Virus record (IMG/VR): IMGVR_UViG_3300028625_000001
Location: 1 to 64,000 of that record
DNA length: 64,000 nucleotides
Direction: 5' to 3' (one strand)
From: a virus
The notes under the pieces were generated by a model that was given only the letters and a program-made list of their open reading frames with translations, was not told where the DNA came from and searched no databases. Below are positions 6,272 through 50,200 of the stretch, piece after piece (position 1 is the first letter of the stretch; each line of letters opens with the position of its first letter). The position numbers and the translations under genes are program-made.

Positions 6272-6575
6272 AGTTCTAAAAGGTGTAGTCCTGGTTCTGT
6301 TAGTAGCAACGATAATTATTCTTATAGCATCGATAATCTCTATGGCGTTCTTCGGCATAATGAGTCATTATCATAAAGTCAATAATCCTGCCCTTTTAGC
6401 CTTCTTAGATTATGAGGTCGGGGAAATGTCCCCGCCGCTGACGGCTTTGATTGCTCAACATGCAGCTTATGAGTTTTGGGAACTATTCAGTTTAGCAGTT
6501 ACACTTATTTCTTTTGTCGCTCTTGGAGTCTTTGCTTATATCGGCAGTGTGACGGATGCTTTCGAGGAGTATTAA
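6264..6575 (+). CDS. membrane protein (103 aa, 3 predicted TM segments)
   Basis: RBS AAGGAGG. Hydrophobic stretches VLVLLVATIIILIASIISMAFFGI and LAVTLISFVALGVFAYI. Confidence 0.6.
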   Translation: MTRVLKGVVLVLLVATIIILIASIISMAFFGIMSHYHKVNNPALLAFLDYEVGEMSPPLTALIAQHAAYEFWELFSLAVTLISFVALGVFAYIGSVTDAFEEY

Positions 6576-6814
6576 TGAAAAAGACGTGGGTACATATAAG
6601 AAGGTCTCCTTACAAAGAAGCCATGTATATTAATGGTAATAAAGCCTTAGAAGATGATGTATATCTCGATGCTATTGATTTGACACGAAAGATAGCGTCT
6701 ATTGGCGAGGGAATATCGCTTGAAGTAACCTTCGATGAAGTATCAGTAGAGCCCGGAACTGAAGCTGCCCCCTTTCCCACGAAGATAACCCGTGCCGACA
6801 TCCTTGATTATTAG
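6575..6814 (+). CDS. hypothetical protein (79 aa), paralog of 42210-42476
   Basis: ORF 6476..6814 trimmed to ATG 6575 after GAGGAG. MKKTWVHIRRSPYKEAMYINGNK aligns with KTLWVHVRSSGSYQALYINGIK of 42210. Confidence 0.6.
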   Translation: MKKTWVHIRRSPYKEAMYINGNKALEDDVYLDAIDLTRKIASIGEGISLEVTFDEVSVEPGTEAAPFPTKITRADILDY

Positions 6815-6845: not shown

Positions 6846-7137
6846 AAACGATGAGACTTCAAGTCAACGACCCCCGGCTGAAGCCGGGAGCTTGTAGCTC
6901 AGGTTGACTAGCCTGAGTGCTTCGGACACTACGTTACCGACAAATGTATAGGCACCATAGGATGCGTTCCCAAGTCTTATGCTCTGCGGTTAGTGGTTAA
7001 ACAGTCCTGATGGGTAGGGACAGTACTGCTAACGAGAAACTGTCGGATAACATTGGCGATGGGAGAATTACTCCGTAAGGAGGTAGGCTATAGATTAGCC
7101 TACACGGAGCTGGAGAGATCCAGCTCCTTACCACTAT
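6846..7137 (+). ncRNA. IscB-type omega-RNA (HEARO-like), ORF-less copy; putative guide 6846-6861
   Basis: From 6862, AGTCAACGACCCcCGGCTgAAGCCGGGAGCTTGTAGCTC... is about 85% identical over about 95 nt to the leader of iscB (40656 onward). Further shared blocks: CTGCGGTnAnTGnTTAAACAG and GATAACATTGGCGA. Confidence 0.65.
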
Positions 7138-7197
7138 GTGAAAGGAGGCAGGCGGCTTCCTCCCCACAGCTAAAGCAGGGGTTCTCCGCCGATTAAT
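6862..7197 (+). mobile_element. miniature (iscB-deleted) IS200/IS605-like OMEGA element: left end/omega-RNA plus right end
   Basis: The left part matches 40656-40890. The last 60 nt (7138-7197, GTGAAAGGAGG...GCTAAAGCA...) match the 60 nt after the iscB stop (42148-42207), with covarying hairpin stems. Confidence 0.6.
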
Positions 7198-7200
7198 ACG

Positions 7201-35995: not shown

Positions 35996-36295
35996 GGGGA
36001 TGACAAGGTTTCGACAGGGCTGTACAAGTATTGACCTCATGCCGTCGAGAGACGTAAAACCTAAACTAAGAACTGACAACCCATTACTTGAAAGAGCGGC
36101 TGCTTAGTCGCTCCCCGTCCGAAAATTTCCTACTCTTATATCGGGTTACGGGTCATAAAGAGTAGGGCTACGAGCCCCAAGTTTGTGTAGAAGTTCTTGT
36201 TAAAAACTTCTATTCGCCTCCAAGCATAGGAAAGCATGTAAAGGGTCGGCATGGAACAGTTTTGGACCCGGGTTCGACTCCCGGCATCTCCACCA
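35996..36295 (+). ncRNA. ssrA: tmRNA (one-piece SsrA)
   Basis: 5' GGGGATGACAAGGTTTCGACAGGG and 3' GGACCCGGGTTCGACTCCCGGCATCTCCACCA form the tRNA-Ala-like domain. An internal frame ends ...D-N-P-L-L-E-R-A-A-A-TAG (stop 36105-36107). Confidence 0.85.
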
Positions 36296-37872: not shown

Positions 37873-38492
37873 GAAAACTTGTATGTATTCTTACTCTTAT
37901 CCTGGTGGTGACATTAATCTTCGGCATAAAAATAGCTCCCTTTGTAGATGCTGACAGTTTTGGGAAGCTTGACGTGGGGGCGGAGCTCTTCCTTACCGAA
38001 GATATAGTAGACCTGTCTGTGAAAGGAGTATATGATGTTCCAGCAAAAGACCTATATCTTGACGGATTGCTCACCCTTAAAAACGACATAGGTTTTCTCA
38101 AAGTCAAAGGGAGTTATGAAACGACCGGTGCTTCACCTACGATAGGATTTTTGGCAACAACCTCACCACTAAAGCTTGATGTTTTTAGTATCTATGGAAT
38201 AGCTGGAACTGGAGATTTTAGAAACAACGATTTTGGCAACAAGGTGCTTGGGGACCTCTTGGCAGACAATAAAGCGCTCTCTGTGTTGGGGGGCGCGAAA
38301 CTAGGACTCGGTTATACGTGGTTTGATCTATCTGCTAAGTTGGAGGCTGGGTACTTTATAAAAGCTGAAGAATACCAGGTGGCTGCTATTGTTGATGGCA
38401 AGTTATTTACTCTGATTGATGTAAAAGCTAAACTTGTACTACTTCCTGAATTTTCATGGTCTGTCTTTGCGCAAACGACTTTTGAGTTCTAA
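37869..38492 (+). CDS. secreted beta-rich protein, possible outer-membrane beta-barrel (207 aa)
   Basis: Trimmed to ATG 37869 (overlaps the upstream stop). Signal peptide MRKLVCILTLILVVTLIFG. Alternating-hydrophobic strands. C-terminal ...TTFEF (terminal Phe). Confidence 0.5.
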   Translation: MRKLVCILTLILVVTLIFGIKIAPFVDADSFGKLDVGAELFLTEDIVDLSVKGVYDVPAKDLYLDGLLTLKNDIGFLKVKGSYETTGASPTIGFLATTSPLKLDVFSIYGIAGTGDFRNNDFGNKVLGDLLADNKALSVLGGAKLGLGYTWFDLSAKLEAGYFIKAEEYQVAAIVDGKLFTLIDVKAKLVLLPEFSWSVFAQTTFEF

Positions 38493-38507
38493 TTATTGAT
38501 TGAAAGT

Positions 38508-38629
38508 TGCCCCGTGGCGGAATGGTAACGCCTAGCAAAACGGTAGGTCGATACGGTGGGGGTGTCCCCGCCGTCCAAACAGCTCGGAAGAGTCTGGATT
38601 CGTTGTGGGTTCAAGTCCCACCGGGGCCG
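38508..38629 (+). tRNA. tRNA-like gene with about 50-nt extra structured insert (122 nt)
   Basis: Acceptor (T)GCCCCG/CGGGGC(C). D-arm GGCG-GAATGGTAA-CGCC. T-arm GTGGG-TTCAAGT-CCCAC. Internal 8-bp hairpin at 38554-38573 and a GGAA-tetraloop hairpin at 38582-38593. No canonical anticodon arm found. No CCA. Confidence 0.45.
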
Positions 38630-38638
38630 TTATATATG

Positions 38639-38714
38639 GGTAGTTTAGGTTAAATTGGCAAACCGCTTTGGCTCATAAGCCAGAGAAGCGCGGGTTCAAA
38701 TCCCGTAACTGCCC
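38639..38714 (+). tRNA. tRNA (CAU; Met/Ile2-like) with an irregular 8-nt anticodon loop
   Basis: Acceptor GGTAGTT/AACTGCC. D-arm GGTT-AAATTGGCA-AACC. T-arm GCGGG-TTCAAAT-CCCGT. Anticodon arm CTTTGG-CTCATAAG-CCAGAG is 20 nt rather than 17. No CCA. Confidence 0.55.
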
Positions 38715-38720
38715 ACAGAC

Positions 38721-38894
38721 TTGACGGTGGCGGAACTGGTAGACGCTATCGTGGCCTTTTGGCAACGCACAACAAAAGTGCGACCTTGCAGTTATATGAC
38801 TGTATTTGGTGGGGCTCGATGAGAAAACATCGAAAACAAACTTGCTAGAAGATAGACCCCAATCTTCGTATAGGTTCGAATCCTGTCCGTCAAG
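38721..38894 (+). tRNA. class-II-like tRNA-like gene with about 90-100-nt insert (174 nt)
   Basis: Perfect acceptor TTGACGG/CCGTCAA. Leu-like D-arm GCG-GAACTGGTAGA-CGC. T-arm ATAGG-TTCGAAT-CCTGT. Variable-arm-like hairpin GAAGAT/ATCTTC (38848-38867). Several internal hairpins. No CCA. Confidence 0.45.
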
Positions 38895-38923
38895 TTAGTA
38901 ACTTTTCTCCTATCTAAGGAGGA

Positions 38924-40378
38924 TTGGTCTATTTTTACAAGGGGGAGGGAACTGAATTGATTGTAGAAGATTTAGTCGTTAAAGAATTATCCGTGGGCAA
39001 TTCATATTCAAAAGAAGGTGTCTTGGACAAAGACAGAGTTTTGACAGTTAGCAAGGTAAAAATCGGCGATAAGACTAGCAATGTTGAAACGATCGATGAG
39101 GAACGAAACGCTTATCTAAAGACCGTACACATTGGGACGCCGGAGTCTAGTATTGAGATCATTGACGAGGACGGCAACGTCCTTCAGAGGCTCCCGGTTG
39201 GCGCTCCGGCGATAGCCACCGCCGCTTCAACCGACTTAACAATCTCTGGTGGAGTATCTAACGGAGAACTAATCGTTATTGGCGACTCTATTATTGAAGT
39301 CAATGACACGACCGCCAGTGATGAAGGTTATGAGCTCCTTAATACTGCCGAAGGAACGAAGACACAGGCCAGCGGTGAAATTACCGTGAGTGCTGCCCCA
39401 GCACACCTCGATTATGTCCAGGTCGGGGAAGACATATACGTTATGGACCTTATTGGAGACGGAGTGAGCGCGGGGGCTATCCAGGTCGATCTTTCAGCTT
39501 TTTATGAAGCTTCAACTGCTACCCTCGCTTTTTCAGACGTAGTATCCGATGGGGAAGTTGTAGAAATCAACGGAGTTAGTTTTGAGTTTGATACCGACGG
39601 CGAGATCACCGAAGGAAATGTAAGAGTTTGGATTGGCGCAAACACCACTGCGGGCGCTGCAATTATTGCTCTCGCTTCAGTTATCAGAGGCAACACGGCT
39701 TGTGGCGTCAATGCAGTCGATGGTGACGGAGACACTTTGGTTGTTACAGCTAGAACATTAGGTACTGTCGGCGACGCCATTACTGTTTCTACCACCTGCG
39801 CGAACGCCTCCTGGGGCGTTGATGTAACCCATCTTGCAGATGGAGCCAGTGCAACTCCCGCAGAGACCATAGCGGCTATTGTGGCAGCTTCTGCCGGTGG
39901 AACGGAAGCCGTTACCATAACTGCCGGTGAAGGCGACGATGCAGGCAAATTACTTATTGCCGCAACTGCCGCTGGTGTTCTTGATGGATCTGCCGGTAAC
40001 TCATGTGTGCTTGCGGTTTCCGGGGCTGGATTTACAGCAAGCGCTTCTACTCTTGAGGGAGGCACCGACATGACGGCAGCCGAGGCTATAGCGGCCCTTG
40101 ACGGAGTAGAGCTCCCTGAAGCAACTCTTGAGGCTGGTGAAGGACTTGTGGCAGTTACAGCCAACGAAGCTGGAGTCGCGGGAAACGCGATTGAAGTCTC
40201 TACGACTATGGAAAATGCCGCCTTTGATGGTGAATACCTTGAGGGCGGCATTGACGGCGGGGAATATACGGAAGCCGATGCGAGAATTGCCAGATATGCC
40301 GACGGTTATCTATATATAGGCGAATGGGTAAACGGGGCAATGAAATGGTATGCCTGGCAGGGGACTGCCTTGAACTAA
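38924..40378 (+). CDS. Ala/Gly/Thr-rich protein (484 aa), possible virion fibre/decoration protein
   Basis: TTG start after AAGGAGGA. Long low-complexity A/G/T/V-rich core. The Ala-rich minus-strand ORF 39502-40251 is its shadow. Confidence 0.55.
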   Translation: MVYFYKGEGTELIVEDLVVKELSVGNSYSKEGVLDKDRVLTVSKVKIGDKTSNVETIDEERNAYLKTVHIGTPESSIEIIDEDGNVLQRLPVGAPAIATAASTDLTISGGVSNGELIVIGDSIIEVNDTTASDEGYELLNTAEGTKTQASGEITVSAAPAHLDYVQVGEDIYVMDLIGDGVSAGAIQVDLSAFYEASTATLAFSDVVSDGEVVEINGVSFEFDTDGEITEGNVRVWIGANTTAGAAIIALASVIRGNTACGVNAVDGDGDTLVVTARTLGTVGDAITVSTTCANASWGVDVTHLADGASATPAETIAAIVAASAGGTEAVTITAGEGDDAGKLLIAATAAGVLDGSAGNSCVLAVSGAGFTASASTLEGGTDMTAAEAIAALDGVELPEATLEAGEGLVAVTANEAGVAGNAIEVSTTMENAAFDGEYLEGGIDGGEYTEADARIARYADGYLYIGEWVNGAMKWYAWQGTALN

Positions 40379-40390
40379 AGAGCAACGAGT

Positions 40391-40460
40391 AAGCGGGAAA
40401 GCTCATTGGAGAGCGCCCTAACAGATGGGGAGGTTGTGGGTCCGAATCCCGCCTCGCTTA
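40391..40460 (+). tRNA. tRNA-like gene with a short (15-nt) anticodon arm, loop AACAGAT (CAG with A33)
   Basis: Acceptor AAGCGGG/CCTCGCTT, extendable to 9 bp. D-arm GCTC-ATTGGA-GAGC. T-arm GTGGG-TCCGAAT-CCCGC (TCC rather than TTC). No CCA. Confidence 0.4.
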
Positions 40461-40483
40461 CTAGATTAGTTAGGGGGGAGAAC

Positions 40484-40609
40484 ATGATAAAGCGATTGAC
40501 TAATTGGTTCAAACGTCAGTGGAAGAAAGATATTGCGATAAACAGACAGCATACAGAAAGCATATATAACGCGTCGGACATTTTCGGAATCCCAGGAATA
40601 AGAGGTTAG
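40484..40609 (+). CDS. small basic protein (41 aa)
   Basis: ORF 40406..40609 trimmed to ATG 40484 after AGGGGGGAG. The upstream part overlaps the tRNA-like gene. Confidence 0.35.
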   Translation: MIKRLTNWFKRQWKKDIAINRQHTESIYNASDIFGIPGIRG

Positions 40610-40613
40610 GAGT

Positions 40614-40657
40614 AGGAGCGTAACTCAGTTGGTTAGAGTGCTGATCTGATACGTCAG
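40614..40657 (+). pseudogene. 5' two-thirds of tRNA-Ile (GAU), truncated at the omega-RNA scaffold
   Basis: AGGAGCG-TA-ACTC-AGTTGGTTA-GAGT-G-CTGAT-CTGATAC-GTCAG is a canonical acceptor 5' strand, D-arm and anticodon arm. No variable loop, T-arm or 3' acceptor strand follows. Confidence 0.7.
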
Positions 40658-40897
40658 TCAACGACCCACGGCTAAAGCCGGGAGCTTGTAGCTCTTGTTG
40701 ACCAGCTTGAGTGTTTTGAGCACTACGTTACGGGTGAATACATAGGCACTCCGGGGTGACGCCACCAGCCCCGGACACTGCGGTGAATGATTAAACAGGT
40801 TGAGGGTCTAAACCAGTGTTGTTCACATTAAACCACTTGATAACATTGGCGAGGTGGACTTTACCGGCGTATGCCGAGAATTGAGAGGTAACTATCT
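40640..40897 (+). ncRNA. IscB omega-RNA (putative 16-nt guide 40640-40655 plus about 240-nt scaffold)
   Basis: Structured leader directly upstream of iscB. Homologous to 6862-7137. Contains conserved hairpins such as CCACGGCT-AA-AGCCGGG and AGTG-N7-CACT. Confidence 0.7.
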
Positions 40898-42207
40898 ATG
40901 CAACGTGTATTTGTAGTTGACAAAAACAGAGAGCCACTGATGCCGTGTCATCCAGCGCGGGCAAGGGAATTACTAAAAAATAGACGGGCAAAAGTGTTAC
41001 GCCGCTACCCGTTCACCATCATCCTGCTGGACCGTGAGGGTGGTGATGTACAACCAGTTGCATTGAAGATTGACCCGGGTAGCAAAACTACAGGGTTGGC
41101 GCTGGTCGCTGATGGCCAGCGTGGGAAACGCGTGGTATGGGCAGGCGAACTTAACCACCGTGGAGAACAGATAAAAGCAAGTATGCTGTCAAGAAAACAG
41201 TTGCGGCGTGCACGCAGATCACGTAAGACTCGCTACCGTCAGCCGCGTTTCGACAATCGCCGCCGGGCCGAGGGGTGGATACCGCCGTCGCTGCGAAGTC
41301 GCGTGGACAACGTGTTGACATGGACAGAACGATTGCGTAGGTTCACACCTATCTGCGCCGTGAGTATGGAGTTGGTGAAATTTGACACACAGGCTATGCA
41401 AAACCCGGAAATCAGTGGTATTGAGTATAAACAAGGCGAATTGATGGGATATGAAGTGCGTGAGTATTTGCTTGAAAAGTTTGGTCGAAGGTGTGCTTAT
41501 TGCGGAGCGACTGGCGCGCCACTAGAAATCGAACATATTATTCCAAAGTCTCGTGGTGGGTCAAATAGGGTAAGCAACCTAACACTGTCTTGTACCGTAT
41601 GTAATCAGCATAAAGGCAATCAGACGGCAACAGAGTTCGGACATCCAACAATTCAGGACAAAGCGAAGCAACCATTGAAAGATGCGGCGGTTATGAATAC
41701 AACACGTTGGACACTTTATCGCAGCTTAAAACAATTAGGCTTACCAATGGAAGTCGGTACTGGTGCACGGACTAAATACAATCGAGTACGACAGAATTAT
41801 CAGAAAGAACACTGGATTGACGCAGCCTGCGTGGGTGTAAGCGGAGAAAAAGTGTATATATCTTCTGGCACAATACCACTGGTTATTAAGGCTACCGGTC
41901 GCCAGTCACGTATCATGTGTCGCCCGGATAAGTACGGTTTCCCGCGCACGAAAGCTAAACAAGGCCGTGTTCACTACGGTTTCCAGACGGGCGACATCGT
42001 GCTGGCAACAATTCCTGAAGGTAAACATACCGGGGTACATATTGGACGTGTGGCAGTTCGTAACAGACCATCGTTTCGACTGAACGATTTTGATGTACAT
42101 CCAAAATACTTAAAAGTTTTGCATCATTCAGACGGCTACAGTTATCAGTGAAAGGAGGGAGCGCCATTCCTCACCGCGCTAAAGCACGGTGTCCCCTGGC
42201 GCAATTT
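40656..42207 (+). mobile_element. IS200/IS605-superfamily OMEGA element (omega-RNA + iscB + right end), no tnpA
   Basis: The boundaries are where similarity to the 6862-7197 copy starts and stops. The right-end hairpin CACCGCGC-TAAA-GCACGGTG covaries with CCCCACAGC-TAAA-GCAGGGG in the mini copy. Confidence 0.6.
40898..42151 (+). CDS. iscB: IscB RNA-guided nuclease (PLMP, split RuvC, bridge helix, HNH, TID)
   Basis: REPLMPCHPARAR (PLMP). KIDPGSKTTGLAL (RuvC-I). RRARRSRKTRYRQPRFDNRRR (bridge helix). MELVKFD (RuvC-II). CAYCG...EIEHIIPKSRGGSNRVSNLTLSCTVCNQHKGN (HNH). EHWIDAACVG (RuvC-III). 417 aa. Confidence 0.85.
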   Translation: MQRVFVVDKNREPLMPCHPARARELLKNRRAKVLRRYPFTIILLDREGGDVQPVALKIDPGSKTTGLALVADGQRGKRVVWAGELNHRGEQIKASMLSRKQLRRARRSRKTRYRQPRFDNRRRAEGWIPPSLRSRVDNVLTWTERLRRFTPICAVSMELVKFDTQAMQNPEISGIEYKQGELMGYEVREYLLEKFGRRCAYCGATGAPLEIEHIIPKSRGGSNRVSNLTLSCTVCNQHKGNQTATEFGHPTIQDKAKQPLKDAAVMNTTRWTLYRSLKQLGLPMEVGTGARTKYNRVRQNYQKEHWIDAACVGVSGEKVYISSGTIPLVIKATGRQSRIMCRPDKYGFPRTKAKQGRVHYGFQTGDIVLATIPEGKHTGVHIGRVAVRNRPSFRLNDFDVHPKYLKVLHHSDGYSYQ

Positions 42208-42209
42208 CT

Positions 42210-42476
42210 ATGGGAATAAAAGCAAAGACGTTGTGGGTGCACGTTAGGTCTTCAGGTTCATATCAGGCATTGTACATTAACGGAATTAAAGAAATCGAAG
42301 GCGAACAAATAGACATTGTTGAAGCTTTTGACCTCTTGGCCGAAAGAACGAATAACGAAGCCTATATCCTCGATTATACATACGAAGACATAGACGAGGA
42401 AGAAGATCCTTTTGATAATGCAGTAGATCGTGACTTCGATTTCCCGGAATCGCTTGACAAAAAGGACGTTATATAG
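42210..42476 (+). CDS. hypothetical protein (88 aa), paralog of 6575-6814
   Basis: ORF 42189..42476 trimmed to ATG 42210 by alignment with paralog A. The ATG abuts the element right end. Confidence 0.5.
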   Translation: MGIKAKTLWVHVRSSGSYQALYINGIKEIEGEQIDIVEAFDLLAERTNNEAYILDYTYEDIDEEEDPFDNAVDRDFDFPESLDKKDVI

Positions 42477-42560
42477 CAGATAGGGTAGTTTATTCTGCAA
42501 GATGGTCAAAATAAAGAACAAAACTAGAGTTTTGCAGAATAATGCAGAAAAGAAAAACGC

Positions 42561-42689
42561 GGGCGCATGGCAAAATTGGCAGATGCTATCGTGACCGAAA
42601 GGTTAGGAGTCTCGTGAGTGAACACGTGAAAAAGCTCGCTAGAATGGGGATCTTGACCATTCGTACAGGTTCGAATCCTGTCGCGCCCA
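42561..42689 (+). tRNA. class-II-like tRNA-like gene with about 50-nt insert (129 nt), paralog of 38721-38894
   Basis: Acceptor GGGCGC(A)/(C)GCGCCC. D-arm GCA-AAATTGGCAGA-TGC. T-arm ACAGG-TTCGAAT-CCTGT. Shares GCTATCGTG...GCTAGAA...TTCGT with 38721. GAAA-tetraloop hairpin at 42590-42607. No CCA. Confidence 0.45.
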
Positions 42690-42699
42690 TTAGACCCCG

Positions 42700-43000
42700 G
42701 CAGGGTCATATTAAACCAGAGAGCAGTTAAGTCTTTCTGTACCAATAGCCGGGTGCAGTCTCTGTTGTAATCCGTTGGCCCGTTTCAGGTACAGAGACGA
42801 AGCAGAAGCGGGCATAAAATTAACCTCCATATCGGACCTTCCGATGGACGCATCGAGAACGGCTAACCGGTATGGCAGAATTGATCCCCACGTCCGCCCT
42901 GCATGTCGACGGGCAGTGATAGGTCAACGGGCGTGGTAGTTAATCCGCGGGACAGTACGCCGAGCCGCTGAAAGGGAAAGTCCTTATGTGACCGGAGTAC
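42700..43000 (+). ncRNA. candidate structured RNA (about 300 nt, unclassified; some group-I-intron-like boxes)
   Basis: ORF-free and more GC-rich than its flanks. Many perfect helices: CCCGGC/GCCGGG, GTCTCTGT/ACAGAGAC, ATCGGA/TCCGAT, GGCGT/ACGCC. Motifs GAAGCGGGCAT, TAATCCGCGGG and AGGGAAAGTCC. Confidence 0.35.
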
Positions 43001-43004
43001 GAGC

Positions 43005-43075
43005 AGAGGGGTAGCTTAATAGGTAAAGCTGATCTCATCCATGGATGTATGCAGGTTCGAATCCTGCTCCCTTTG
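43005..43075 (+). tRNA. tRNA-like gene, loop CATCCAT (UCC with A33), short variable region
   Basis: Acceptor AGAGGGG/TCCCTTT (two G-U pairs). D-arm GCTT-AATAGGTA-AAGC. T-arm GCAGG-TTCGAAT-CCTGC. 4-bp anticodon stem. No CCA. An alternative perfect 5' strand AAAGGGA lies at 42971. Confidence 0.45.
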
Positions 43076-43089
43076 CTAGAAGGAGTTGG

Positions 43090-43620
43090 TTGGTTGTGTT
43101 TTTTAGAAAAACGTTGAAGGAAATAATTTCCAAGATTACCAAGGGGAATTTAGTAATATGCAACAAGGTCAAGTATGTAGAAGAGGCCGTCAACGACGAA
43201 CGCCAATTGATATATGGTCTTAGCGGCGAGATAAAAGCGCTTCGAGATGCGATAGTAGAGAACCCTTTTGCTAATCCTCAAAAGGGGAATTTATCTATCC
43301 AACAAGAAGTGTATATAGAACACAGCGACGGGGCTAGGGAAAAGACGGACGAACTCCGCCGCTTAGTCCTTGGAGCAACTTATAAACATTTCAAAGGAGA
43401 CAACTATAGAGTCCTTGGACTTGCAAAACACCACGAAAGCGGCGAAATACTGGTAATTTACCAGATGGTATATAACTACCTAAACACTTATTTGTCGATA
43501 GCTACCGTCGGCGAAATCTATGCCCGGCCAATAGATGACTTTCTTTGTCTGGTAGAGCGCGACGGGGAAGTTAAACAAAGATTCCAGCTTATAAGCGAGC
43601 TGAGAAAGGAGGAGACATGA
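43090..43620 (+). CDS. DUF1653-domain protein
   Basis: ATYKHFKGDNYRVLGLAKHHESGEILVIYQ...YARPIDDF resembles the DUF1653 core. Start is TTG 43090 or GTG 43096, after AAGGAG. Confidence 0.55.
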   Translation: MVVFFRKTLKEIISKITKGNLVICNKVKYVEEAVNDERQLIYGLSGEIKALRDAIVENPFANPQKGNLSIQQEVYIEHSDGAREKTDELRRLVLGATYKHFKGDNYRVLGLAKHHESGEILVIYQMVYNYLNTYLSIATVGEIYARPIDDFLCLVERDGEVKQRFQLISELRKEET

Positions 43621-43889
43621 ACGGCGCTAAGGAATATGCAGAGAAATATTTTATAGCAATCAGTGGATATGAAACAGATGTTCGTTACGCCTTAAACATT
43701 GCTTTCTTTAGGAGACTGGCGGTAAGAATGGGCGCCGCCGATGATCCCGATGCGGACGCGCTTCTTAAAAAAGGCGATGAGTTCTATAAAGAAAACAGAG
43801 ATGAAATATTAAAGGCATTACGGGCGAATCCATCTTGGACATCAGAAGAAGAAGCATATATAGAAAAAGAAATAACGGGAGGGAATTGA
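43617..43889 (+). CDS. hypothetical protein (90 aa)
   Basis: ATGA overlap with the upstream stop. Confidence 0.55.
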   Translation: MNGAKEYAEKYFIAISGYETDVRYALNIAFFRRLAVRMGAADDPDADALLKKGDEFYKENRDEILKALRANPSWTSEEEAYIEKEITGGN

Positions 43890-43891
43890 GA

Positions 43892-44245
43892 TTGACTAAA
43901 CGTTTTTGCGATCATTGCGGTGAAGCGATCCCTGACAAAGATAGTTTTTATACCGTTGAACTTAACGGCAAGCAGTATGATTTTTGTTCTATAGCCTGTC
44001 ATGAGGCGTTCGTCGCCGCACATAAAGATGAGATCGAAAAGCATCAGCTTGAAAGAAGAAACAAAGAGCTTGACAAAAGACATAAGGAACTTGAGGCAAG
44101 GATTCATAAGTTAGAAGAGCGAATCTCTTCTCTTGAAATGATGGAAATGTGGAAGGAATTTTTCCCTGTGCAATTCCCTGACTTGCAAGTTGCCTCGGAT
44201 ACTAATGAGAGCGCCAGACTCCCCTTTGTTACTTATACCCTTTAG
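43892..44245 (+). CDS. zinc-binding (CxxC...CxxxC) coiled-coil protein (117 aa)
   Basis: ORF 43835..44245 trimmed to TTG 43892 after GGGAGGG. FCDHCGE...DFCSIACHEAF. Confidence 0.5.
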   Translation: MTKRFCDHCGEAIPDKDSFYTVELNGKQYDFCSIACHEAFVAAHKDEIEKHQLERRNKELDKRHKELEARIHKLEERISSLEMMEMWKEFFPVQFPDLQVASDTNESARLPFVTYTL

Positions 44246-44255
44246 CAAAATACAG

Positions 44256-44329
44256 GGCGAGGTAGAGTAGCGGCCACTCGAAGGTCTCATAAGCCTTATA
44301 GGAGGGTTCAACTCCCTCCCTCGCTCCCA
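44256..44329 (+). tRNA. tRNA-Met (CAU), CCA encoded
   Basis: Acceptor GGCGAGG/CCTCGCT. D-arm GAGT-AGCGGCC-ACTC. Anticodon arm AAGGT-CTCATAA-GCCTT. T-arm GAGGG-TTCAACT-CCCTC. Ends C-CCA. Confidence 0.85.
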
Positions 44330-44382
44330 GGATAGGCATCTTACATACCCGAAAGTAACTTACTCAAGAGTATCTTGTTTGC

Positions 44383-44468
44383 GGCGGGGTAGTCTAATTG
44401 GCAAGGCAGCGGTCTTGAAAACCGTCGGGCGAAAGCCTTTGAGAGTTCGACTCTCTCTCCCGCCGCCA
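44383..44468 (+). tRNA. tRNA-Ser (UGA), class II, CCA encoded
   Basis: Acceptor GGCGGGG/TCCCGCC. D-arm GTCT-AATTGGCA-AGGC. Anticodon arm GCGGT-CTTGAAA-ACCGT. Variable arm GGGC-GAAA-GCCT. T-arm GAGAG-TTCGACT-CTCTC. Ends G-CCA. Confidence 0.85.
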
Positions 44469-44490
44469 GAAAAGATTAGGAGATGAATAG

Positions 44491-44952
44491 GTGAACCCCT
44501 TTTTTAAGTATCTGAAATACCTGCTAAAACATCGTTGGTACGTATTTGTCGAATGTTGTAAGTTAGGAATTCCTTGGCGAGGTTTAACACATGACATAAG
44601 CAAGTTCCTGCCTGATGAATGGATTCCTTATATGCGACATTTCTACATGTCATACATAACCAGACCGGAATGGAAGACGCAATATAACATTGCATGGCTT
44701 AAACATCAAAACCGAAACAGACACCATTGGCAATATTGGCTACTCTGGAAAGATAGCGGCAAGGTCTTACCTCAAGAAATGCCAATGAGATACCGAAAAG
44801 AGATGTTGGCAGATTGGCGTGGCGCCGGACGCGCCATTACCGGGCGAGACGACACAAGAGAGTTCTACCTAAAGAATAAAGACAATATAACTCTCGCACC
44901 AGAAACTAAACGATGGGTAGAGGCAAAATTAGGGATAGATCGATCGAATTAA
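44491..44952 (+). CDS. hypothetical protein (153 aa, His/Trp-rich)
   Basis: GTG after TTAGGAG. LTHDISKF...HQNRNRHHWQYW. No family assigned. Confidence 0.5.
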   Translation: MNPFFKYLKYLLKHRWYVFVECCKLGIPWRGLTHDISKFLPDEWIPYMRHFYMSYITRPEWKTQYNIAWLKHQNRNRHHWQYWLLWKDSGKVLPQEMPMRYRKEMLADWRGAGRAITGRDDTREFYLKNKDNITLAPETKRWVEAKLGIDRSN

Positions 44953-44962
44953 AGGAGGGATA

Positions 44963-45262
44963 ATGCCGTGGCTTAACTTCTATTTTTGGAGGGAACCCAT
45001 GAGCAGAAGCTATACAAAAGCAGTCAGGATTCATCGAGGAAAACCTAAAACGGCCAGAAAGAACAACGCAAGAGTTTGTAGACGGAAAGTAAAACAGTTT
45101 ATCAAAGGCAGGAAGTTGGATAAGGCTGCAAGCTACGCTGGGAAAGACCACTATTCAACATTCTACGAGGTTTGGGAATTAAAGGCTGTCTGGTTTGTAG
45201 AAGAACTCTATAACTGGATATATAAAGGGAAAGAAAGTCTAAAAAAGCTTAGAAGTAAATAG
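44963..45262 (+). CDS. basic small protein (99 aa)
   Basis: ATG after AAAGGAGGG. Confidence 0.5.
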   Translation: MPWLNFYFWREPMSRSYTKAVRIHRGKPKTARKNNARVCRRKVKQFIKGRKLDKAASYAGKDHYSTFYEVWELKAVWFVEELYNWIYKGKESLKKLRSK

Positions 45263-45354
45263 TTAGGTTCGTCGAAGAGGGGTAAGTTTCAATGAGAGCA
45301 ATCATGTTCTCAATGCGACTTACCCTCATTTTTTATCAACAGGAGGCTTTTAAA

Positions 45355-45813
45355 ATGGAAGTCTTTTATAGCAACAAGTTATTGACAATCGCCTTATCCA
45401 TAGTCTTTCTTCTATTGTGTGGAAACTTTTCATTATCAACCTACATGCTCAACGCTCCGCCTCTAGTTATTAGAGGGGATCTCTCTGGCGCGAAAGTCGC
45501 CTATGGCTCCGCTCCGGCAGCGTTTCAGTCTCTCTTTACTATTCATCTTAATGAGAAAGTCGGAAATTATACAACCATCAGGCATGAGTATCAACACTAT
45601 ATACAAAGTGCCCTATTAACTCCATTTGGTGCGGCGATAGGCTATCAATGGCAGCGATGCATATTGGGCAAAAGCTACAATGAGAACTGGTTTGAACTAG
45701 ACGCAGACCGGGCAAGAGAAGACGGCCTGATGTTTGATGTTTTTGTCTGGAACACTAAAGAACTTGTCACCATAATACCAGGACAATACTACTTCGATCT
45801 AGGGGTGGAATAA
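45355..45813 (+). CDS. membrane-anchored HExxH protein (putative metallopeptidase-like), paralog 1
   Basis: Trimmed to ATG 45355 after ACAGGAGG. TM helix LLTIALSIVFLLLCG. IRHEYQHYIQSALLTPFG contains HEXXH. Confidence 0.5.
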   Translation: MEVFYSNKLLTIALSIVFLLLCGNFSLSTYMLNAPPLVIRGDLSGAKVAYGSAPAAFQSLFTIHLNEKVGNYTTIRHEYQHYIQSALLTPFGAAIGYQWQRCILGKSYNENWFELDADRAREDGLMFDVFVWNTKELVTIIPGQYYFDLGVE

Positions 45814-46235
45814 TGGAAAATCTATACACAAACCCGTGGGTAACTATCCCCCTCACGATACTATACGCTTGCCTTGCGTTGAATTTTGCCGGGGCAATTT
45901 TTGCGTTGAACGCCGACCCGATATTGATCCCAATAGAAACCAAAAACCCTTCATTCACAGGAATAACGATAGCGCCTTTCATAATACTTAAAAACGAATG
46001 TTTGACATACACAGATTTAAGACGCGAATACCAGCATTATATGCAGCAATCGTTGTTGACGCCTTTAGGCTTCTTAGGATTCTATATTGGAGAATACTTA
46101 CTTGAGGGTAGTTTTGACAATGTATCTTTTGAACAAGAAGCCGTCAAGAAGGAAAACGATTCTCTTGAGTTTGAGGTGTTCAACATAAAGACTTTTAAGA
46201 AGATGAAAGTATATTCAGACATGGGGGGGGATTGA
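45813..46235 (+). CDS. membrane protein, degenerate paralog of 45355-45813 (REYQH instead of HEYQH)
   Basis: LRREYQHYMQQSLLTPLG aligns with the HEXXH region of the upstream gene. N-terminal TM segments. Confidence 0.5.
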   Translation: MENLYTNPWVTIPLTILYACLALNFAGAIFALNADPILIPIETKNPSFTGITIAPFIILKNECLTYTDLRREYQHYMQQSLLTPLGFLGFYIGEYLLEGSFDNVSFEQEAVKKENDSLEFEVFNIKTFKKMKVYSDMGGD

Positions 46236-46979
46236 ATGAGCGAAAGAGACGACCAGGTAGCGACCCTGGGGATTGAAATAAAAGAAAACGAGGCTGTCAA
46301 AGCTTTACATCCCGAAGATGACGAAGGAATAACCGCCGTCGAGGCGGCGGAGGCTTTTGACACAATCGAGCATGGCTATAAACTCTGGGAGTATGCACCC
46401 GGCGTTAAGTTCAGACTCTATTTCCCCTCCGCGGAAGTTGCGGGAGAAGCCAACTTCGTCTATTCAAAGATGTATCTTACATACATAAAGGGCGGCGCAC
46501 TCCCCTTACAAAAGCTTATGGCTTTAATGGACGCTCAGGGGTTATGGACTAAAGAAGACGAAAAGAAGTTTATGGAAGCAGAAAAAGAGCTTCGAGAACA
46601 ATCCTTGCGCTATTTGAATCTCAGAAAAAAGGTTGTAGAAAACCCTGAAGAAAGACTCGCGGGGGAAGTTATCAATGCCGATGCCGCATATAAAGAAGCA
46701 TATGAGGAATATATAAAACTTAAGGAAACGAAAGAAAACATCGTCAGCCTTTCAGCGGATTCCCTGGCGGACACTCAAAGAAGAGCTTATTACGTATATA
46801 GACTGACTAGACTAGAGGACGGAAGTCCTAAATGGGCTTCTTTCGATGACTTACTAAAAGAGACAGAGATGGTCATAGACAAGATATGGCAACAAATACT
46901 AGCCTTCTATGTCAAGTATGGTGATCGTTTTTTAGGAAGCTTGCCCGTTCAAGACACTGGAAAGACAGACAAAAAGTAG
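46236..46979 (+). CDS. hypothetical protein (247 aa; in the position of a tail assembly chaperone)
   Basis: ATG after GGGGGGGATTGA. Upstream of the tape measure gene. Function is positional only. Confidence 0.45.
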   Translation: MSERDDQVATLGIEIKENEAVKALHPEDDEGITAVEAAEAFDTIEHGYKLWEYAPGVKFRLYFPSAEVAGEANFVYSKMYLTYIKGGALPLQKLMALMDAQGLWTKEDEKKFMEAEKELREQSLRYLNLRKKVVENPEERLAGEVINADAAYKEAYEEYIKLKETKENIVSLSADSLADTQRRAYYVYRLTRLEDGSPKWASFDDLLKETEMVIDKIWQQILAFYVKYGDRFLGSLPVQDTGKTDKK

Positions 46980-47005
46980 GGGAGGAGTTAAATCTCCCCG
47001 TTTTT
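46979..47005 (+). terminator. terminator-like hairpin
   Basis: GGGGAG-N9-CTCCCC followed by GTTTTT. Confidence 0.55.
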
Positions 47006-47038
47006 CGACTTCCGTCATATGCTTCACAAATAAACCCT

Positions 47039-47278
47039 TTGCTTTCCAAATTCATTAGCTATGTTGTTTTTTACAACAACATCTTGTCCGAACCCGTCAA
47101 CAGACCGCCGGACTCAATTATCAAGATCGATGAAAAAGTGGACGAATGGGTCAAGAAGCGCTACGACGATCTTGAGTCTCAGAGAATGGATTATTACCTC
47201 AAGTACATGAGGAATATCAGACCCATAGCTGGTCCTGATGATGACGGGTTCGTCTTTATAGGCGACGGGAACGATTAG
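47039..47278 (+). CDS. hypothetical protein (79 aa; start uncertain)
   Basis: ORF track entry with TTG start. Immediately upstream of the tape measure gene. Confidence 0.4.
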   Translation: MLSKFISYVVFYNNILSEPVNRPPDSIIKIDEKVDEWVKKRYDDLESQRMDYYLKYMRNIRPIAGPDDDGFVFIGDGND

Positions 47279-47290
47279 GGGGGGATAAAC

Positions 47291-50200
47291 ATGGAACCAC
47301 AAGACACCTATGATTATCTATTGACTATGGGCGTTGATGCCAAAAAAGTCTTTGAGACGTTTAACAAGATTGATGAGCGGGCCGATCAGATTGGACAGAA
47401 TATAGACTTGAAAGGTTTACAACGCCTCACCACAGAAATGACTAATGTCCAGAAACAGCTTACCACAATCATAACCGACTTCAATAGACTAGGTACAATT
47501 ACAGGGAAAGTTGCAGCGCCTATCAACACTAAAGGAATAGAAAACGCGAAACAACAAGTAAGTAGCCTCAGCGACGCGATAAACAAGGTGAATCAACAAG
47601 TCGGAGCCTCTATAGAAAGTCAGTCAAAACAGGTAGAACAAAAATTTACCAAGAGTCTTAGCGACTTTGTAAAGAAGAACAAGGAAATAAGCTCAAGTAT
47701 TCCCGCTACATATAAAGACGCTTTCGCCGCGTTATCCGCCGAGGTACAAAAAACGATCCCGAAGATCCAGGAAGAGATGCGAAAGCTCGTCGATATATGG
47801 GATCAGCAATCACCAGAAGTCAAAGGACAAACCCCCCTTAAGAGTCTTATCCCCTCTCAACAAATAGCCTTAGATATGGAAGACGGCAAAAAAGCTATCT
47901 TTGAAGTAACTTATCAGTATGACAGGCTCAAGGACGAAATGACCGCCGTTGTTAAAGCTTCTAATGATGTAGCAAAGTCTATGAAGGATATTCCCACAAT
48001 GAAAGTCTTTGGTCAGGCGGTCGAGCCAGTCGAAAAGGTAAAAACCTCGCTCGAAGAAACGGCAACGACCATCAAGACCAGATATGGAGAAGCTTTCCAA
48101 ACTTTCAATAGACACATCAACGAGTCTTTCCCTAAAGCGGAAGAGAGAATAAAAAAGTTTGCCGATGAATGGGCCAAAATGTCGGAGGAACAAAAAAGAC
48201 AAACCCCCTTAAGTAAGATAGCAGATCCTGACTATTTTGTCATCGAGCTTGAAGACGGCAAAAAAGCTCTTTATGAAATAAGTTATGCCTATGACGAAGT
48301 GAATAAACAAGTAGTAGCCAACGTAAAGGCACATAACGAGTTTGCGAAATCACTTGATGAGATCCCTAACAAAGTCAAGTTAAGCGGCCAGGCTATGGTC
48401 AACAACTTCAGCAATGCAACTGAAGTCACTAGAAAAACACAGAGCGCCTTTATGGACTTGGCGCGGGAGATAAAAGACTCCGTTCCGGTCATGAAAGAGC
48501 AAATGGAAAGTTATGTCCGTGAATGGGAGAAAGTTAGAGGTATTGACCAAGAATCGATTCCTCTTGACGCCATGAAAAAGACCAAGCAATTTGTAGTCGA
48601 TATAGGCAATGGGCAAAAAGCACTCTATGAAGCTACTTATACATTCAACAGAATGACCGGCGAAGTCTCTACCTCCGTGAAGGCGGTTAATGACTTTGCT
48701 AAAGCCTTCGATGGTATACCCGGGAAGTTTGATGTTGCGAAAAGGGCCGGTCGTGGCGTAGTCGATACTCTTAGAAATATTCAGACCGTAGGGCTCGCCG
48801 CGCAAAAGGTTTTTACCTGGTTGGTCGCTACAACCCTAATATATGGGACCATCAGATCCTTCCAGAAATACGTTTCTATGTTGTCGGAGATCGAGGAGAA
48901 GTTTATTACTCTCCAGAAAGTTACAAGCGATACCGGGACAGTCGAGAGATATTTTGAAACAGCAATGGTCCTTGCAGATGCTTACCGCATGAAGATTCAA
49001 GATACCCTCGATGTCATGACCGAGTTTGCACGGCAGGGTCTGAGAGGCGAAGAACTCTTATATGCCACTCAAGCCGGACTTTTAGCGACTCAGGCGACCC
49101 CTTTAAGCGCAGAAGAATCTACTAAAGCGCTTATCGCTATGTCAAAACAATTCAATATAGCGGCTGAGGATCTTGCTCAGACAGTTGACAAGATAACGAA
49201 CGTAGCCAACAACTTTGCAGTAGAAGCAAAAGACCTTACAGAAGGGCTTTCTATCGTGGGACAAGTAGCTTCTATAACCGGGGCTACGATAGATGACATG
49301 TCCGCAATCATTGCCACGGCGGGAACCGTGACTAAAAAAGCGGGAAACGAAATAGGTAATGCCTGGAAGGTGATAATAAGTAGGATTTATGGTAGCGAAC
49401 AATCCCAGAGAGAAATATCTAACCTTCTTGGTCTTCCTATGGTAGATATCGTTAATCAACCGTTGGTGGAGCTCCTGGCTCAAATGGCGGACAGATGGAA
49501 GACGGTAGACGAGTCTCAGAAAAACGCCGTTGCCAGCGCTATTGTCGGACGCAGAAGATATGCCGATCTTGTGGCGGTCCTTGAGAATTTTGATCTCGTG
49601 GTCGATGCGGCCGCAACCTCTATCTCTTCTTTTGGTGCCGCAGAAAGGGCCGTCTCCTTACAGTTTGACAGCTTTAAGAGTGCGGTTCAGGAATTAAAGA
49701 ATACTGCTTATAACCTGACCAGGACTTTTGGAGACGAACTACTCAATGCCCTGGCGGGAGCGATAGACCCGGAAAGGATCGGGGCATTGATTACAGCGAC
49801 AGTAGCTCCCACGGTCATAAACGCTTTCTATAAGATATTCACAAAAACCGCTTTCCTTTCAAAGGGTTGGCTTGGCTTAGTCACCGCGGCTATTGCTGGG
49901 ATAGGTTTCGCAATAGTCTCTCATCTTGAAAAGGTAGAACAACTTAGGCGGCACTACACGAGGCTAGACAATGAAGTAGATACCCTTACAAAAGGATATA
50001 AAGACTTACAAGTTCAGCTTAGTAAAATAGATTCTTCGACAAAAGATGCAGCTTTTGAACAACAGAAATTACAGCTCGCTTTGACCAAGACTAAAGACAG
50101 GATAAGAGAACTCATTCCTTTTGTCACCAAGATAAGTGAGATCGATGGCAAGTTGTCTTTTGACATTGACGAAGAGTCTTATATGTATGCGCAGGAATTG

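What the first reader, a model, noticed from the sequence alone, without database searches (positions are those of the whole stretch)
40614..40672. The omega-RNA guide position is occupied by the anticodon arm of a truncated tRNA-Ile(GAU)
40614-40657 is a textbook tRNA-Ile 5' part: acceptor strand, U8, D-arm AGTTGGTTA, and anticodon arm with CTGATAC. It stops exactly where the conserved omega-RNA scaffold (AGTCAACGACCC) begins. I could not find a matching T-arm plus CGCTCCT 3' strand anywhere after the element. In IS200/605-type OMEGA elements the guide derives from DNA flanking the element end. The predicted guide (40640-40655) would therefore be complementary to intact tRNA-Ile(GAU) genes. 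In bacteria these typically sit in rRNA operon spacers. Two readings are possible. It may be a fossil of insertion into a phage tRNA gene (homing target). Alternatively, the nuclease may be aimed at host or rival-phage tRNA-Ile loci.
Basis: partly seen in the sequence, partly recalled or inferred. Interest (0 to 1): 0.7.

Follow-up and report, generated by a model that had tools for sequence, protein, structure and literature searches.

The report
Phage tRNA-Ile gene truncated by IscB element
A mobile RNA-guided nuclease element (IscB plus its guide RNA) in a large phage has replaced the back half of the phage's own isoleucine tRNA gene, so its guide RNA is positionally the tRNA's anticodon arm; this looks like an insertion scar, though the nuclease might still cut the intact gene in sister phages.

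Summary
Positions 40614-40656 are nucleotides 1-42 of a tRNA-Ile(GAU), abutting a HEARO/omega-RNA scaffold (40657-40864) and an intact iscB gene (40898-42151). No 3' half exists in the window.

Two sister phage contigs (L017/L029 and L030) carry the empty site. It holds an intact tRNA-Ile (its first 44 nt are identical to window 40614-40657 in L030), a spacer, and then the ATG of an 88-aa gene. In the window, the 1553-nt element (40657-42209) replaces the 140-153 nt between tRNA position 42 and that ATG.

The element's far end abuts ATGG. This is the transposon-adjacent motif (TAM) seen at 8 of 8 independent insertions of this subfamily. The tRNA junction lies at a near-cognate GTGGG.

The guide (40641-40656) is therefore a positional by-product of insertion plus flank loss. 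It matches sister-phage tRNA-Ile 16/16 and ten other phage tRNA-Ile genes. It matches no tRNA in 185,579 cellular genomes, so host targeting is not supported.

Whether it cuts sister-phage tRNA-Ile depends on whether this IscB tolerates G at TAM position 1, which is untested. This is a new member of a known kind and moderately interesting.

The parts
40614..40656 (+). Remnant of the resident phage tRNA-Ile(GAU) gene, tRNA positions 1-42. Position 43 (G) coincides with the first base of the element.
   Evidence: Rfam truncated tRNA hit. Window 40614-40657 is 44/44 identical to the intact tRNA-Ile of L030, and is syntenic with the tRNA-Ile of L017.
40641..40656 (+). Predicted 16-nt omega-RNA guide, CTGATCTGATACGTCA (tRNA positions 27-42, the anticodon arm).
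   Evidence: These are the 16 nt immediately 5' of the scaffold and element boundary. The guide position rule is taken from Meers et al., PMC10055086. The RNA 5' end has not been mapped.
40657..42209 (+). Non-autonomous IscB (ISC / IS200-IS605-type) element, 1553 nt.
   Evidence: Boundaries come from the reciprocal empty-site comparison of window and L017. Homologous copies lie in unrelated flanks in L015, L021, L027, L034, L036, L042 and L043.
40657..40864 (+). Omega-RNA scaffold (HEARO, RF02033).
   Evidence: 134 bits against a gathering score of 83, with the full model 1-211 matched.
40898..42151 (+). iscB gene, 417 aa, intact.
   Evidence: Pfam RRXRR plus HNH. NCBIfam equivalog 'RNA-guided endonuclease IscB' at 458 bits. 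PDB IscB hits. D59, E158, H213 and H305/D308 motifs are present, and dN/dS is 0.05-0.11 against other copies.
42172..42191 (+). Subterminal hairpin of the far end (CACCGCGCTAAAGCACGGTG).
   Evidence: Conserved, with compensatory changes, in copy 1 and L011. This was read from the sequence.
42210..42213 (+). Cognate TAM ATGG, which is also the start codon of the 88-aa gene (42210-42476).
   Evidence: ATGG follows 8 of 8 independent insertions of this subfamily. The gene start ATGGGAATAAAAG is native, because it is identical in the element-free L030.
6863..7200 (+). Second copy, lacking iscB: omega-RNA scaffold plus far end (MITE-like) of a sister subfamily, followed by ATGA.
   Evidence: HEARO at 143 bits. 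The far-end motif and flank are shown.

Best explanation
A non-autonomous IscB/omega-RNA transposon (40657-42209) sits in the tRNA cluster of a large phage. In sister phages the same spot holds an intact tRNA-Ile(GAU), a spacer of about 105-120 nt with the RBS, and then the ATG of an 88-aa gene. In this lineage the element has replaced the 140-153 nt between tRNA position 42 and that ATG. The far end abuts the family's cognate motif ATGG, exactly as in every other insertion of this subfamily. The omega-RNA end abuts the tRNA at a near-cognate GTGGG. Both junctions therefore lie at transposase-type target motifs (bottom strand CCCAT and CCCAC). I infer that the element inserted canonically in front of the 88-aa gene's start codon. 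The flank on its omega-RNA side was then lost back to the near-cognate motif in the tRNA variable loop, either through an aberrant TnpA-type reaction or through recombination between two nearby copies. In IscB elements the guide is simply whatever lies 5' of the scaffold. Read-through from the tRNA cluster should therefore produce an omega-RNA whose guide is the tRNA-Ile anticodon arm. The nuclease and the scaffold are intact. The only natural matches to the guide are phage tRNA-Ile genes, where the target is followed by GTGG or GAGG rather than ATGG. I therefore rate the guide as an accidental, probably inefficient retargeting rather than an evolved weapon. What is shown: the anatomy, the empty sites, the TAM regularity and the absence of cellular targets. 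What is inferred: the order of events, expression of the guide, and the lack of cleavage at GTGG.
For: The tRNA remnant and scaffold junction are shown. The IscB protein is intact and under purifying selection. The empty site with an intact tRNA-Ile occurs in L017/L029 (95-98% identical flanks) and in L030. The missing segment is 153 nt relative to L017 and 140 nt relative to L030; it begins with GTGGG and is followed by ATGG. The reciprocal empty site for L017's own element at window 45354/45355 fixes the element's ends. ATGG follows 8 of 8 independent insertions, and ATGA follows 6 of 6 in sister lineages. L030 has the same ATGGGAATA gene start without an element, so the right junction is native. 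A clean insertion of the same subfamily into a phage tRNA-Glu D loop at ATGG keeps both halves (L034). Another replaced-segment case occurs in L043. The guide matches no cellular tRNA. Published work shows that the IscB guide lies outside the transposon end and needs read-through transcription. It also reports that the GstIscB TAM is TTCAT (ATGAA in the iscB sense) and that single-base TAM changes ablate cleavage (PMC10055086).
Against: No intermediate allele was found, whether the element plus an intact tRNA-Ile or the element inside the tRNA with the 3' half retained. The order of events is therefore unproven. No TnpA was detected in the window or the fetched loci, although the test was only a weak tblastn, so the agent of transposition or deletion is unknown. 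In IsrB relatives, and in OgeuIscB, the first TAM position is N (NTG, NTGG, NTGA; PMC9581776; NWRRNA, abstract). GTGG could therefore be a working TAM, which would make the guide functional. The junction is identical in seven or more samples. That fits either a neutral scar or a maintained allele.
Confidence: 0.6

Rival explanations
1. The guide is functional for homing or exclusion. This IscB would read NTGG, with TAM position 1 not contacted. The RNP would then cut the intact tRNA-Ile(GAU) gene of co-infecting sister phages at the boundary of anticodon arm and variable loop. Recombinational repair from this genome would copy in the element and delete the tRNA 3' half and spacer. The outcome is a gene drive or marker exclusion analogous to T4 SegB in the T4 tRNA region.
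For: The guide matches the syntenic tRNA-Ile of L017/L029 and L030 16/16, with homology on both sides available for repair. IscB is intact and under purifying selection, and the scaffold is intact. The element is co-oriented with upstream genes and tRNAs. IsrB orthologues read NTG, NTGG or NTGA without contacting position 1. The allele is present unchanged in seven or more samples. The concept of non-restorative homing between co-infecting phages, and SegB as a precedent, come from PMC13565253.
Against: All 14 insertion sites of this family and its sister lineages have A at position 1, including sites in tRNA D loops that are not start codons. For GstIscB, the closest IscB with a measured TAM (ATGAA), single-base TAM changes ablate cleavage. 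Alleles with an intact tRNA-Ile persist in what appears, from its accession numbers, to be the same ENA sample series (ERZ27257396 against ERZ27257502).
Confidence: 0.33
2. The origin ran the other way. The element first inserted into the tRNA-Ile gene itself at the near-cognate GTGGG, so the guide is the true insertion flank. The 140-153 nt on its far side were then lost up to the next cognate ATGGG. Alternatively, two copies 140-153 nt apart recombined.
For: The tRNA junction lies exactly before GTGGG, a 4-of-5 match to the ATGGG at the other junction. A random position would show such a match about 1.6% of the time by my own calculation. Elements of this family do land in phage tRNA or tRNA-like genes (L034, L030 and L043). 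The region is an insertion hot spot, with three different insertions within 5 kb among three sister contigs.
Against: This needs transposition into a non-cognate motif never seen among the 14 sites, plus a deletion that starts exactly at the element end and stops exactly at a cognate TAM. That is two exact coincidences, where canonical insertion followed by flank loss needs only one.
Confidence: 0.3
3. The nuclease is aimed at host tRNA-Ile(GAU) genes in rRNA operons.
For: There is only the general fact that bacterial tRNA-Ile(GAU) genes exist in rRNA spacers (established knowledge).
Against: There were 0 exact matches to TAGAGNNCTGATCTGATACGTCAG in representative genomes of 185,579 species. 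The guide plus NTGG gave 3 hits, none in a tRNA, close to the roughly 4 expected by chance by my own estimate.
Confidence: 0.03

Closest known systems
IscB/omega-RNA (ISC, IS200/IS605-superfamily) elements, e.g. ISGst5 of Geobacillus stearothermophilus (Meers et al. 2023, PMC10055086)
   Same: It has an IscB with RRXRR/PLMP, a split RuvC and an HNH domain, and a HEARO omega-RNA upstream on the same strand. The guide is the flank outside the transposon end. There are subterminal hairpins. Insertion is next to a short motif: ATGG/ATGA here, TTCAT (ATGAA in the iscB sense) in ISGst5. It lacks TnpA, like most ISC copies.
   Different: It resides in phage genomes and moves between unrelated phages. 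It inserts almost always exactly between the RBS and the ATG of a gene, or in tRNA D loops. In this copy the guide-side flank is not the original insertion flank, because 140-153 nt are missing, so guide and cognate TAM are uncoupled.
Structurally characterised IscB nucleases (OgeuIscB 7XHT/7UTN and others)
   Same: There is sequence homology over the RuvC/HNH core, with E values from 1e-29 to 1e-47.
   Different: It is shorter (417 aa). The TAM inferred from insertion sites is ATGG, against NWRRNA for OgeuIscB. There is no biochemical data for this protein.
Phage T4 SegB, a free-standing homing endonuclease that cleaves the tRNA gene region (Brok-Volchanskaya et al. 2008, cited in PMC13565253)
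   Same: It is a phage-encoded nuclease located in a tRNA cluster, whose potential target is a tRNA gene of related phages. The expected outcome would be preferential inheritance of the local region.
   Different: SegB is a protein-only GIY-YIG enzyme with demonstrated activity. Here the specificity would be RNA-guided, and activity on the tRNA target is unproven and possibly blocked by the TAM.
IsrB nickases with NTG/NTGG/NTGA TAMs (Hirano et al. 2022, PMC9581776)
   Same: The TGG/TGA core of the TAM is the same, and so is the placement of omega-RNA and guide.
   Different: IsrB lacks the HNH domain and nicks only. Its position-1 indifference cannot simply be transferred to this IscB.

Membership tests
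IscB/omega-RNA (ISC, IS200/IS605 superfamily) element | IscB protein: PLMP/RRXRR N-terminus, split RuvC with an inserted HNH domain | tested here: met
   Pfam RRXRR 3e-74 and HNH 2e-13. NCBIfam NF040563 equivalog at 458 bits against a cutoff of 175. PDB IscB hits. Catalytic-type motifs IDPGS, MELVKFD, EIEHI and HWIDAA are present.
IscB/omega-RNA (ISC, IS200/IS605 superfamily) element | HEARO-type omega-RNA directly upstream of iscB on the same strand | tested here: met
   RF02033 at 134 bits, full length, at 40657-40864, which is 34 nt upstream of the iscB ATG.
IscB/omega-RNA (ISC, IS200/IS605 superfamily) element | Discrete mobile unit with defined ends, present or absent at otherwise identical sites, with no target-site duplication | tested here: met
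   Reciprocal empty sites between window and L017. The same unit occurs in at least 8 different flanks.
IscB/omega-RNA (ISC, IS200/IS605 superfamily) element | Insertion adjacent to a fixed short motif (TAM) on the side opposite the guide | tested here: met
   ATGG at 8 of 8 sites, and ATGA at 6 of 6 sites in sister lineages.
IscB/omega-RNA (ISC, IS200/IS605 superfamily) element | Y1 (HUH) TnpA transposase in the element (autonomous form) | tested here: not met
   There is no room for one in the 1553-nt unit. A tblastn with an IS200 TnpA sequence recalled from memory found nothing in the window or 45 loci. This is a weak test. The result is consistent with a non-autonomous copy, as for most ISC elements (PMC13565253).
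IscB/omega-RNA (ISC, IS200/IS605 superfamily) element | Guide (flank) plus cognate TAM together reconstitute the empty or donor-joint site that the RNP cleaves | tested here: not met
   In the empty sites the guide-matching sequence is followed by GTGGG, not ATGG, and the cognate ATGG lies 140-153 nt further on. For L017's copy the rule is met (window 45339-45358).
IscB/omega-RNA (ISC, IS200/IS605 superfamily) element | RNA-guided DNA cleavage activity and a mature omega-RNA with a guide of about 16 nt | not testable with these tools
   This needs RNA 5'-end mapping and cleavage assays.
Functional tRNA-Ile(GAU) gene | Complete cloverleaf: acceptor 3' strand, T arm and variable loop | tested here: not met
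   Only positions 1-43 are present. No matching 3' half exists in the window. Forcing a full-length tRNA alignment into the omega-RNA lowers the score to 21.7 bits.
Phage homing endonuclease acting on a tRNA region (SegB-like, functional analogy only) | Cleaves the allele of related phages that lacks the nuclease gene, giving biased inheritance | not testable with these tools
   The target match is shown (16/16). TAM compatibility and cleavage are unknown.

The most novel reading that the evidence does not exclude
Loss of the original flank has naturally reprogrammed a phage-borne IscB. Its new guide is the anticodon arm of tRNA-Ile(GAU), a 17-nt sequence identical in the sister phages and in ten otherwise unrelated IMG/VR phage contigs. 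If this IscB reads NTGG or NNGG rather than ATGG, the element would be an RNA-guided homing and exclusion nuclease. It would destroy or convert the tRNA-Ile gene of co-infecting phages. Window-type and L017-type phages would then carry reciprocal drives, since each genome holds a perfect target for the other's omega-RNA.
Probability: 0.3. Interest if true: 0.7.

Novelty: new member of a known kind. Interest (0 to 1): 0.42.

Why it matters
This case gives a fully documented natural before-and-after pair for an IscB element in phages. The same locus is available with and without the element, and a second element shows the reciprocal pattern. It shows that these elements move among unrelated phages. 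They land with single-base precision between RBS and start codon, or in tRNA D loops at ATGG. Flank loss can uncouple the guide from the TAM. That makes two open points directly testable. One is whether OMEGA nucleases act as homing or exclusion nucleases between co-infecting phages. The other is whether the nuclease's TAM is as strict as the transposase's target motif. As it stands, the tRNA-derived guide is most simply an insertion scar.

Tried and rejected
1. I searched both strands of the whole window for a T arm plus CGCTCCT 3' strand and found none. A split or permuted tRNA within the window is therefore rejected.

2. A full-length tRNA fold using the first omega-RNA hairpin as a T arm scores worse than the half alone (21.7 against 26 bits). 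This is rejected.

3. Near-identical phages were not found in INPHARED. IMG/VR searches with the 484-aa neighbour protein, the acceptor/D-arm string and the junction string also found nothing. Relatives came only from the metagenome protein index.

4. I considered that the TGGG at the right junction came from the tRNA variable loop through microhomology fusion. This is refuted because element-free L030 already has ATGGGAATA at the gene start.

5. Simple slippage between CAGT microhomologies works only with an L017-type flank. With the L030-type flank, which matches the window's alleles better, only 2 nt are shared. It is therefore not favoured.

6. Host tRNA targeting is rejected.

7. The guide has no second target in the window. 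The best other site has 3 mismatches.

8. A consensus promoter scan found nothing convincing just upstream of the guide.

9. The guide's own hairpin is weak (-2.1 kcal/mol, z = -0.9), so self-structure is not a barrier.

10. The search for TnpA was negative.

11. The intact version of the tRNA split in L043 was not found.

Full report
**Observation.**
The stretch 40614-40657 reads AGGAGCG TA ACTC AGTTGGTTA GAGT G CTGAT CTGATAC GTCAG. That is an acceptor 5' strand, U8, a D arm and a complete anticodon arm with anticodon GAT. ARAGORN does not call it. The Rfam tRNA model in 3'-truncated mode aligns model positions 1-42 at 26 bits, with E=6e-4 for the 98-nt search. Rfam places a full-length HEARO RNA (RF02033, the IscB omega-RNA) at 40657-40864 with 134 bits.

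A 417-aa ORF follows at 40898-42151. It matches Pfam RRXRR plus HNH, the NCBIfam equivalog 'RNA-guided endonuclease IscB' at 458 bits, and solved IscB structures. No T arm followed by the complementary acceptor strand exists anywhere in the window. The guide is off by one base: the 16 nt next to the scaffold are 40641-40656.

**The element and its ends.**
The window holds a second HEARO copy at 6863-7071 (143 bits). It has no iscB and runs straight into the same kind of far end as the full copy (GTGAAAGGAGG ... GCTAAAGC hairpin).

The exact IscB protein occurs on 11 contigs that are 100% identical to the window. Close homologues at 84-97% identity occur on many phage-like contigs.

One of these is L017 (ENA ERZ27257396 k141_173841, 113 kb), which is identical to JGI Ga0116194_1000082 (L029). 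It is a sister phage, 95-98% identical to the window over window 38195-51297. It carries its own copy of the element (84% identical) at a different place, between window positions 45354 and 45355. Comparing the two genomes there gives TTTTAAA|ATGGAAG in the window. In L017 it gives TTTTAAA|GTCAACGACC...GGCGCAATTTCA|ATGGAAG.

This fixes the element as GTCAAC...CAATTTC(N), with no target duplication, and with ATGG directly after it. In the window the element is therefore 40657-42209.

**The empty site.**
At the position of the window's element, L017 has an intact tRNA-Ile(GAT) called by ARAGORN (L017:2416-2493). It is followed by a spacer with an RBS and then the ATG of an 88-aa gene.

A third variant, L030 (Ga0180028_1173355), has an intact tRNA-Ile whose first 44 nt are identical to window 40614-40657. 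Its spacer ends in GACGTTTTTAAGG, and its gene starts ATGGGAATAAAAG exactly as in the window.

The window thus equals the sister sequence up to tRNA position 42, then the element, then the sister sequence from the ATG of the 88-aa gene. The stretch from GTGGGCGAAGG... to the base before ATGG is missing: 153 nt in L017 and 140 nt in L030. The tRNA piece is a remnant of a resident phage tRNA gene. It was not carried in with the element, and it is not a chance resemblance.

**Target motif.**
Eight independent insertions of this subfamily are followed by ATGG. They are the window, L017, L015, L021, L027, L034, L036 and L043.

Six insertions of sister lineages are followed by ATGA. They are window copy 1, L011, L022:10148, L025:6075, L030 inverted and L044. 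Most sit exactly between an RBS and the ATG of a gene.

Three sit in tRNA or tRNA-like genes.
- In L034 the element lies in a D loop at TAA|ATGG. Joining the two flanks restores a tRNA-Glu(TTC) that ARAGORN calls.
- In L030 an inverted sister element abuts the tRNA-like gene that is intact at window 40392-40463, at a minus-strand ATGA.
- In L043 the flanks are nt 1-15 and the T arm plus acceptor 3' strand of one tRNA. The roughly 33 nt in between are missing, and the far flank again starts with ATGGG.

The motif agrees with published work. GstIscB of ISGst5 uses TTCAT, which is ATGAA in the iscB sense (PMC10055086). BbIsrB reads NTGG (PMC9581776).

**How the junction arose.**
The window's right junction is canonical: a cognate ATGG at a start codon, on native sequence. 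The left junction is the unusual one. It lies immediately before GTGGG in the tRNA variable loop, a 4-of-5 match to the ATGGG at the other junction. So the element has replaced the segment bounded by a near-cognate and a cognate motif (bottom strand CCCAC and CCCAT).

I favour canonical insertion in front of the 88-aa gene. This would be followed by loss of the flank on the omega-RNA side back to the near-cognate motif. Two routes could do this. One is an aberrant TnpA-type strand exchange pairing the omega-RNA-side end with a downstream pseudo-target. The other is a second local insertion followed by recombination between the two 1.55-kb direct repeats.

The converse order is less parsimonious but not excluded. 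In it, insertion into the tRNA at GTGGG is followed by loss of the far flank up to ATGGG. No intermediate allele was found, and no TnpA was detected (a weak test). All of this paragraph is inference from junction sequences.

**What the guide can do.**
IscB guides are the roughly 16 nt outside the transposon end and depend on read-through transcription. Here the upstream genes and tRNAs are co-oriented. The scaffold is intact, and iscB is under strong purifying selection, with dN/dS of 0.05-0.11 against three other copies. An RNP with the guide CTGATCTGATACGTCA is therefore plausible.

The guide matches the sister phages' tRNA-Ile 16/16. It also matches ten intact phage tRNA-Ile(GAT) genes in IMG/VR.

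It matches no tRNA in representative genomes of 185,579 bacterial and archaeal species. There were 0 hits with D-arm context. The guide plus NTGG gave 3 non-tRNA hits, which is about the chance expectation by my own estimate. It has no other site in the window.

In all phage tRNA-Ile genes the target is followed by G (GTGG, GAGG or GTTG), because position 43 must pair with C27. All 14 insertion sites have A there. For GstIscB, single-base TAM changes abolish cleavage. In contrast, IsrB orthologues and OgeuIscB do not read the first TAM position. Whether this RNP cuts tRNA-Ile genes of sister phages is therefore open. I put it at about one in three.

If it does cut, repair from this genome would copy in the element and delete the tRNA 3' half. 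That would be non-restorative homing between co-infecting phages, functionally like T4 SegB in the T4 tRNA region (PMC13565253).

**Comparison and verdict.**
The element passes the membership tests for an IscB/omega-RNA ISC element of the non-autonomous kind. The protein, RNA, discrete ends and TAM features are all met.

One rule is not met here, although L017's copy meets it. The guide and cognate TAM no longer reconstitute the empty site.

The tRNA is a truncated pseudogene. The allele is stable and identical in at least seven samples.

This is a new member of a known kind with an instructive twist, not a new mechanism. Host targeting is not supported. The 'fossil of insertion' reading is supported with the modification described above. 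The 'rival phage' reading remains testable.

Noticed in passing
window 6863-7200: An omega-RNA-only derivative without iscB (HEARO at 143 bits plus the far-end hairpin, 338 nt) of a sister subfamily. Its flank guide is AACGATGAGACTTCAA and it is followed by ATGA. Similar short copies occur at L022 around 10148 and L025 around 6075. It could be a trans-acting guide for an IscB, or just a MITE.
   Followed up: partly
window 45339-45358: ACAGGAGGCTTTTAAA|ATGG is the empty site for the L017-type phage's element. It is a perfect 16/16 target with the cognate TAM for that element's omega-RNA. The sister phage's IscB should therefore be able to cut this genome.
   Followed up: partly
window 40392-40463: A tRNA-like gene (Rfam tRNA 28.3 bits, just under the gathering score; not called by ARAGORN) whose 'anticodon' stem closes a loop of only 5 nt. 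The stem shows a compensatory G-C to A-T change between L017/L030 and the window. In L030 it is interrupted by an inverted IscB-type element.
   Followed up: partly
window 38638-38716; L017:443-521: A tRNA with an 8-nt anticodon loop and a 4-base anticodon (CAUA here, CACA in the sister phage). It may be a frameshift-suppressor-like or otherwise unusual decoder.
   Followed up: no
window about 38509-38628, about 38723-38891, and 42561-42689: Three genes have tRNA-like ends (acceptor plus D arm and T arm plus acceptor) separated by roughly 50-100 extra nucleotides. Only the third reaches the Rfam tRNA threshold (29.3 bits). They could be intron-containing or otherwise expanded tRNAs. L030 has a longer version of the third.
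   Followed up: no
window about 42730-43000: A conserved non-coding stretch upstream of tRNA-Gly that is 94-98% identical in L017 and L030. It is GC-rich with many potential helices and contains GGGAAAGTCC. It has no Rfam match at E<=1.
   Followed up: no
window 35996-36295: A phage-encoded tmRNA (Rfam 108.9 bits; tag peptide VKPKLRTDNPLLERAAA) sits next to the tRNA cluster.
   Followed up: no
L034:2699-2714 and 4272-4333: The same IscB subfamily is cleanly inserted in the D loop of a phage tRNA-Glu(TTC) at TAA|ATGG. Both halves are kept, so there the guide is the tRNA's acceptor/D-stem 5' strand with a cognate TAM.
   Followed up: yes
L043:1199-1214 and 2771-2800: This is a second 'replaced segment' case. 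The element is flanked by nt 1-15 and by the T arm plus acceptor 3' strand of one tRNA, with about 33 internal nt missing, and the far flank starts with ATGGG. An intact copy of that tRNA was not found.
   Followed up: partly
window 42210; L017:7313; L021:7313; L027:7271: Elements of this family sit exactly between the RBS and the ATG of the downstream gene. The TAM ATGG is the start codon plus one base. This separates the gene from its RBS by 1.5 kb, and how the downstream gene is then translated is unclear.
   Followed up: no
window 6575-6814 and 42210-42476: The small genes next to the two element copies are paralogues: a 79-aa gene upstream of copy 1 and an 88-aa gene downstream of copy 2, 31% identical with E=7e-9. 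This may be coincidence or a trace of recombination.
   Followed up: no
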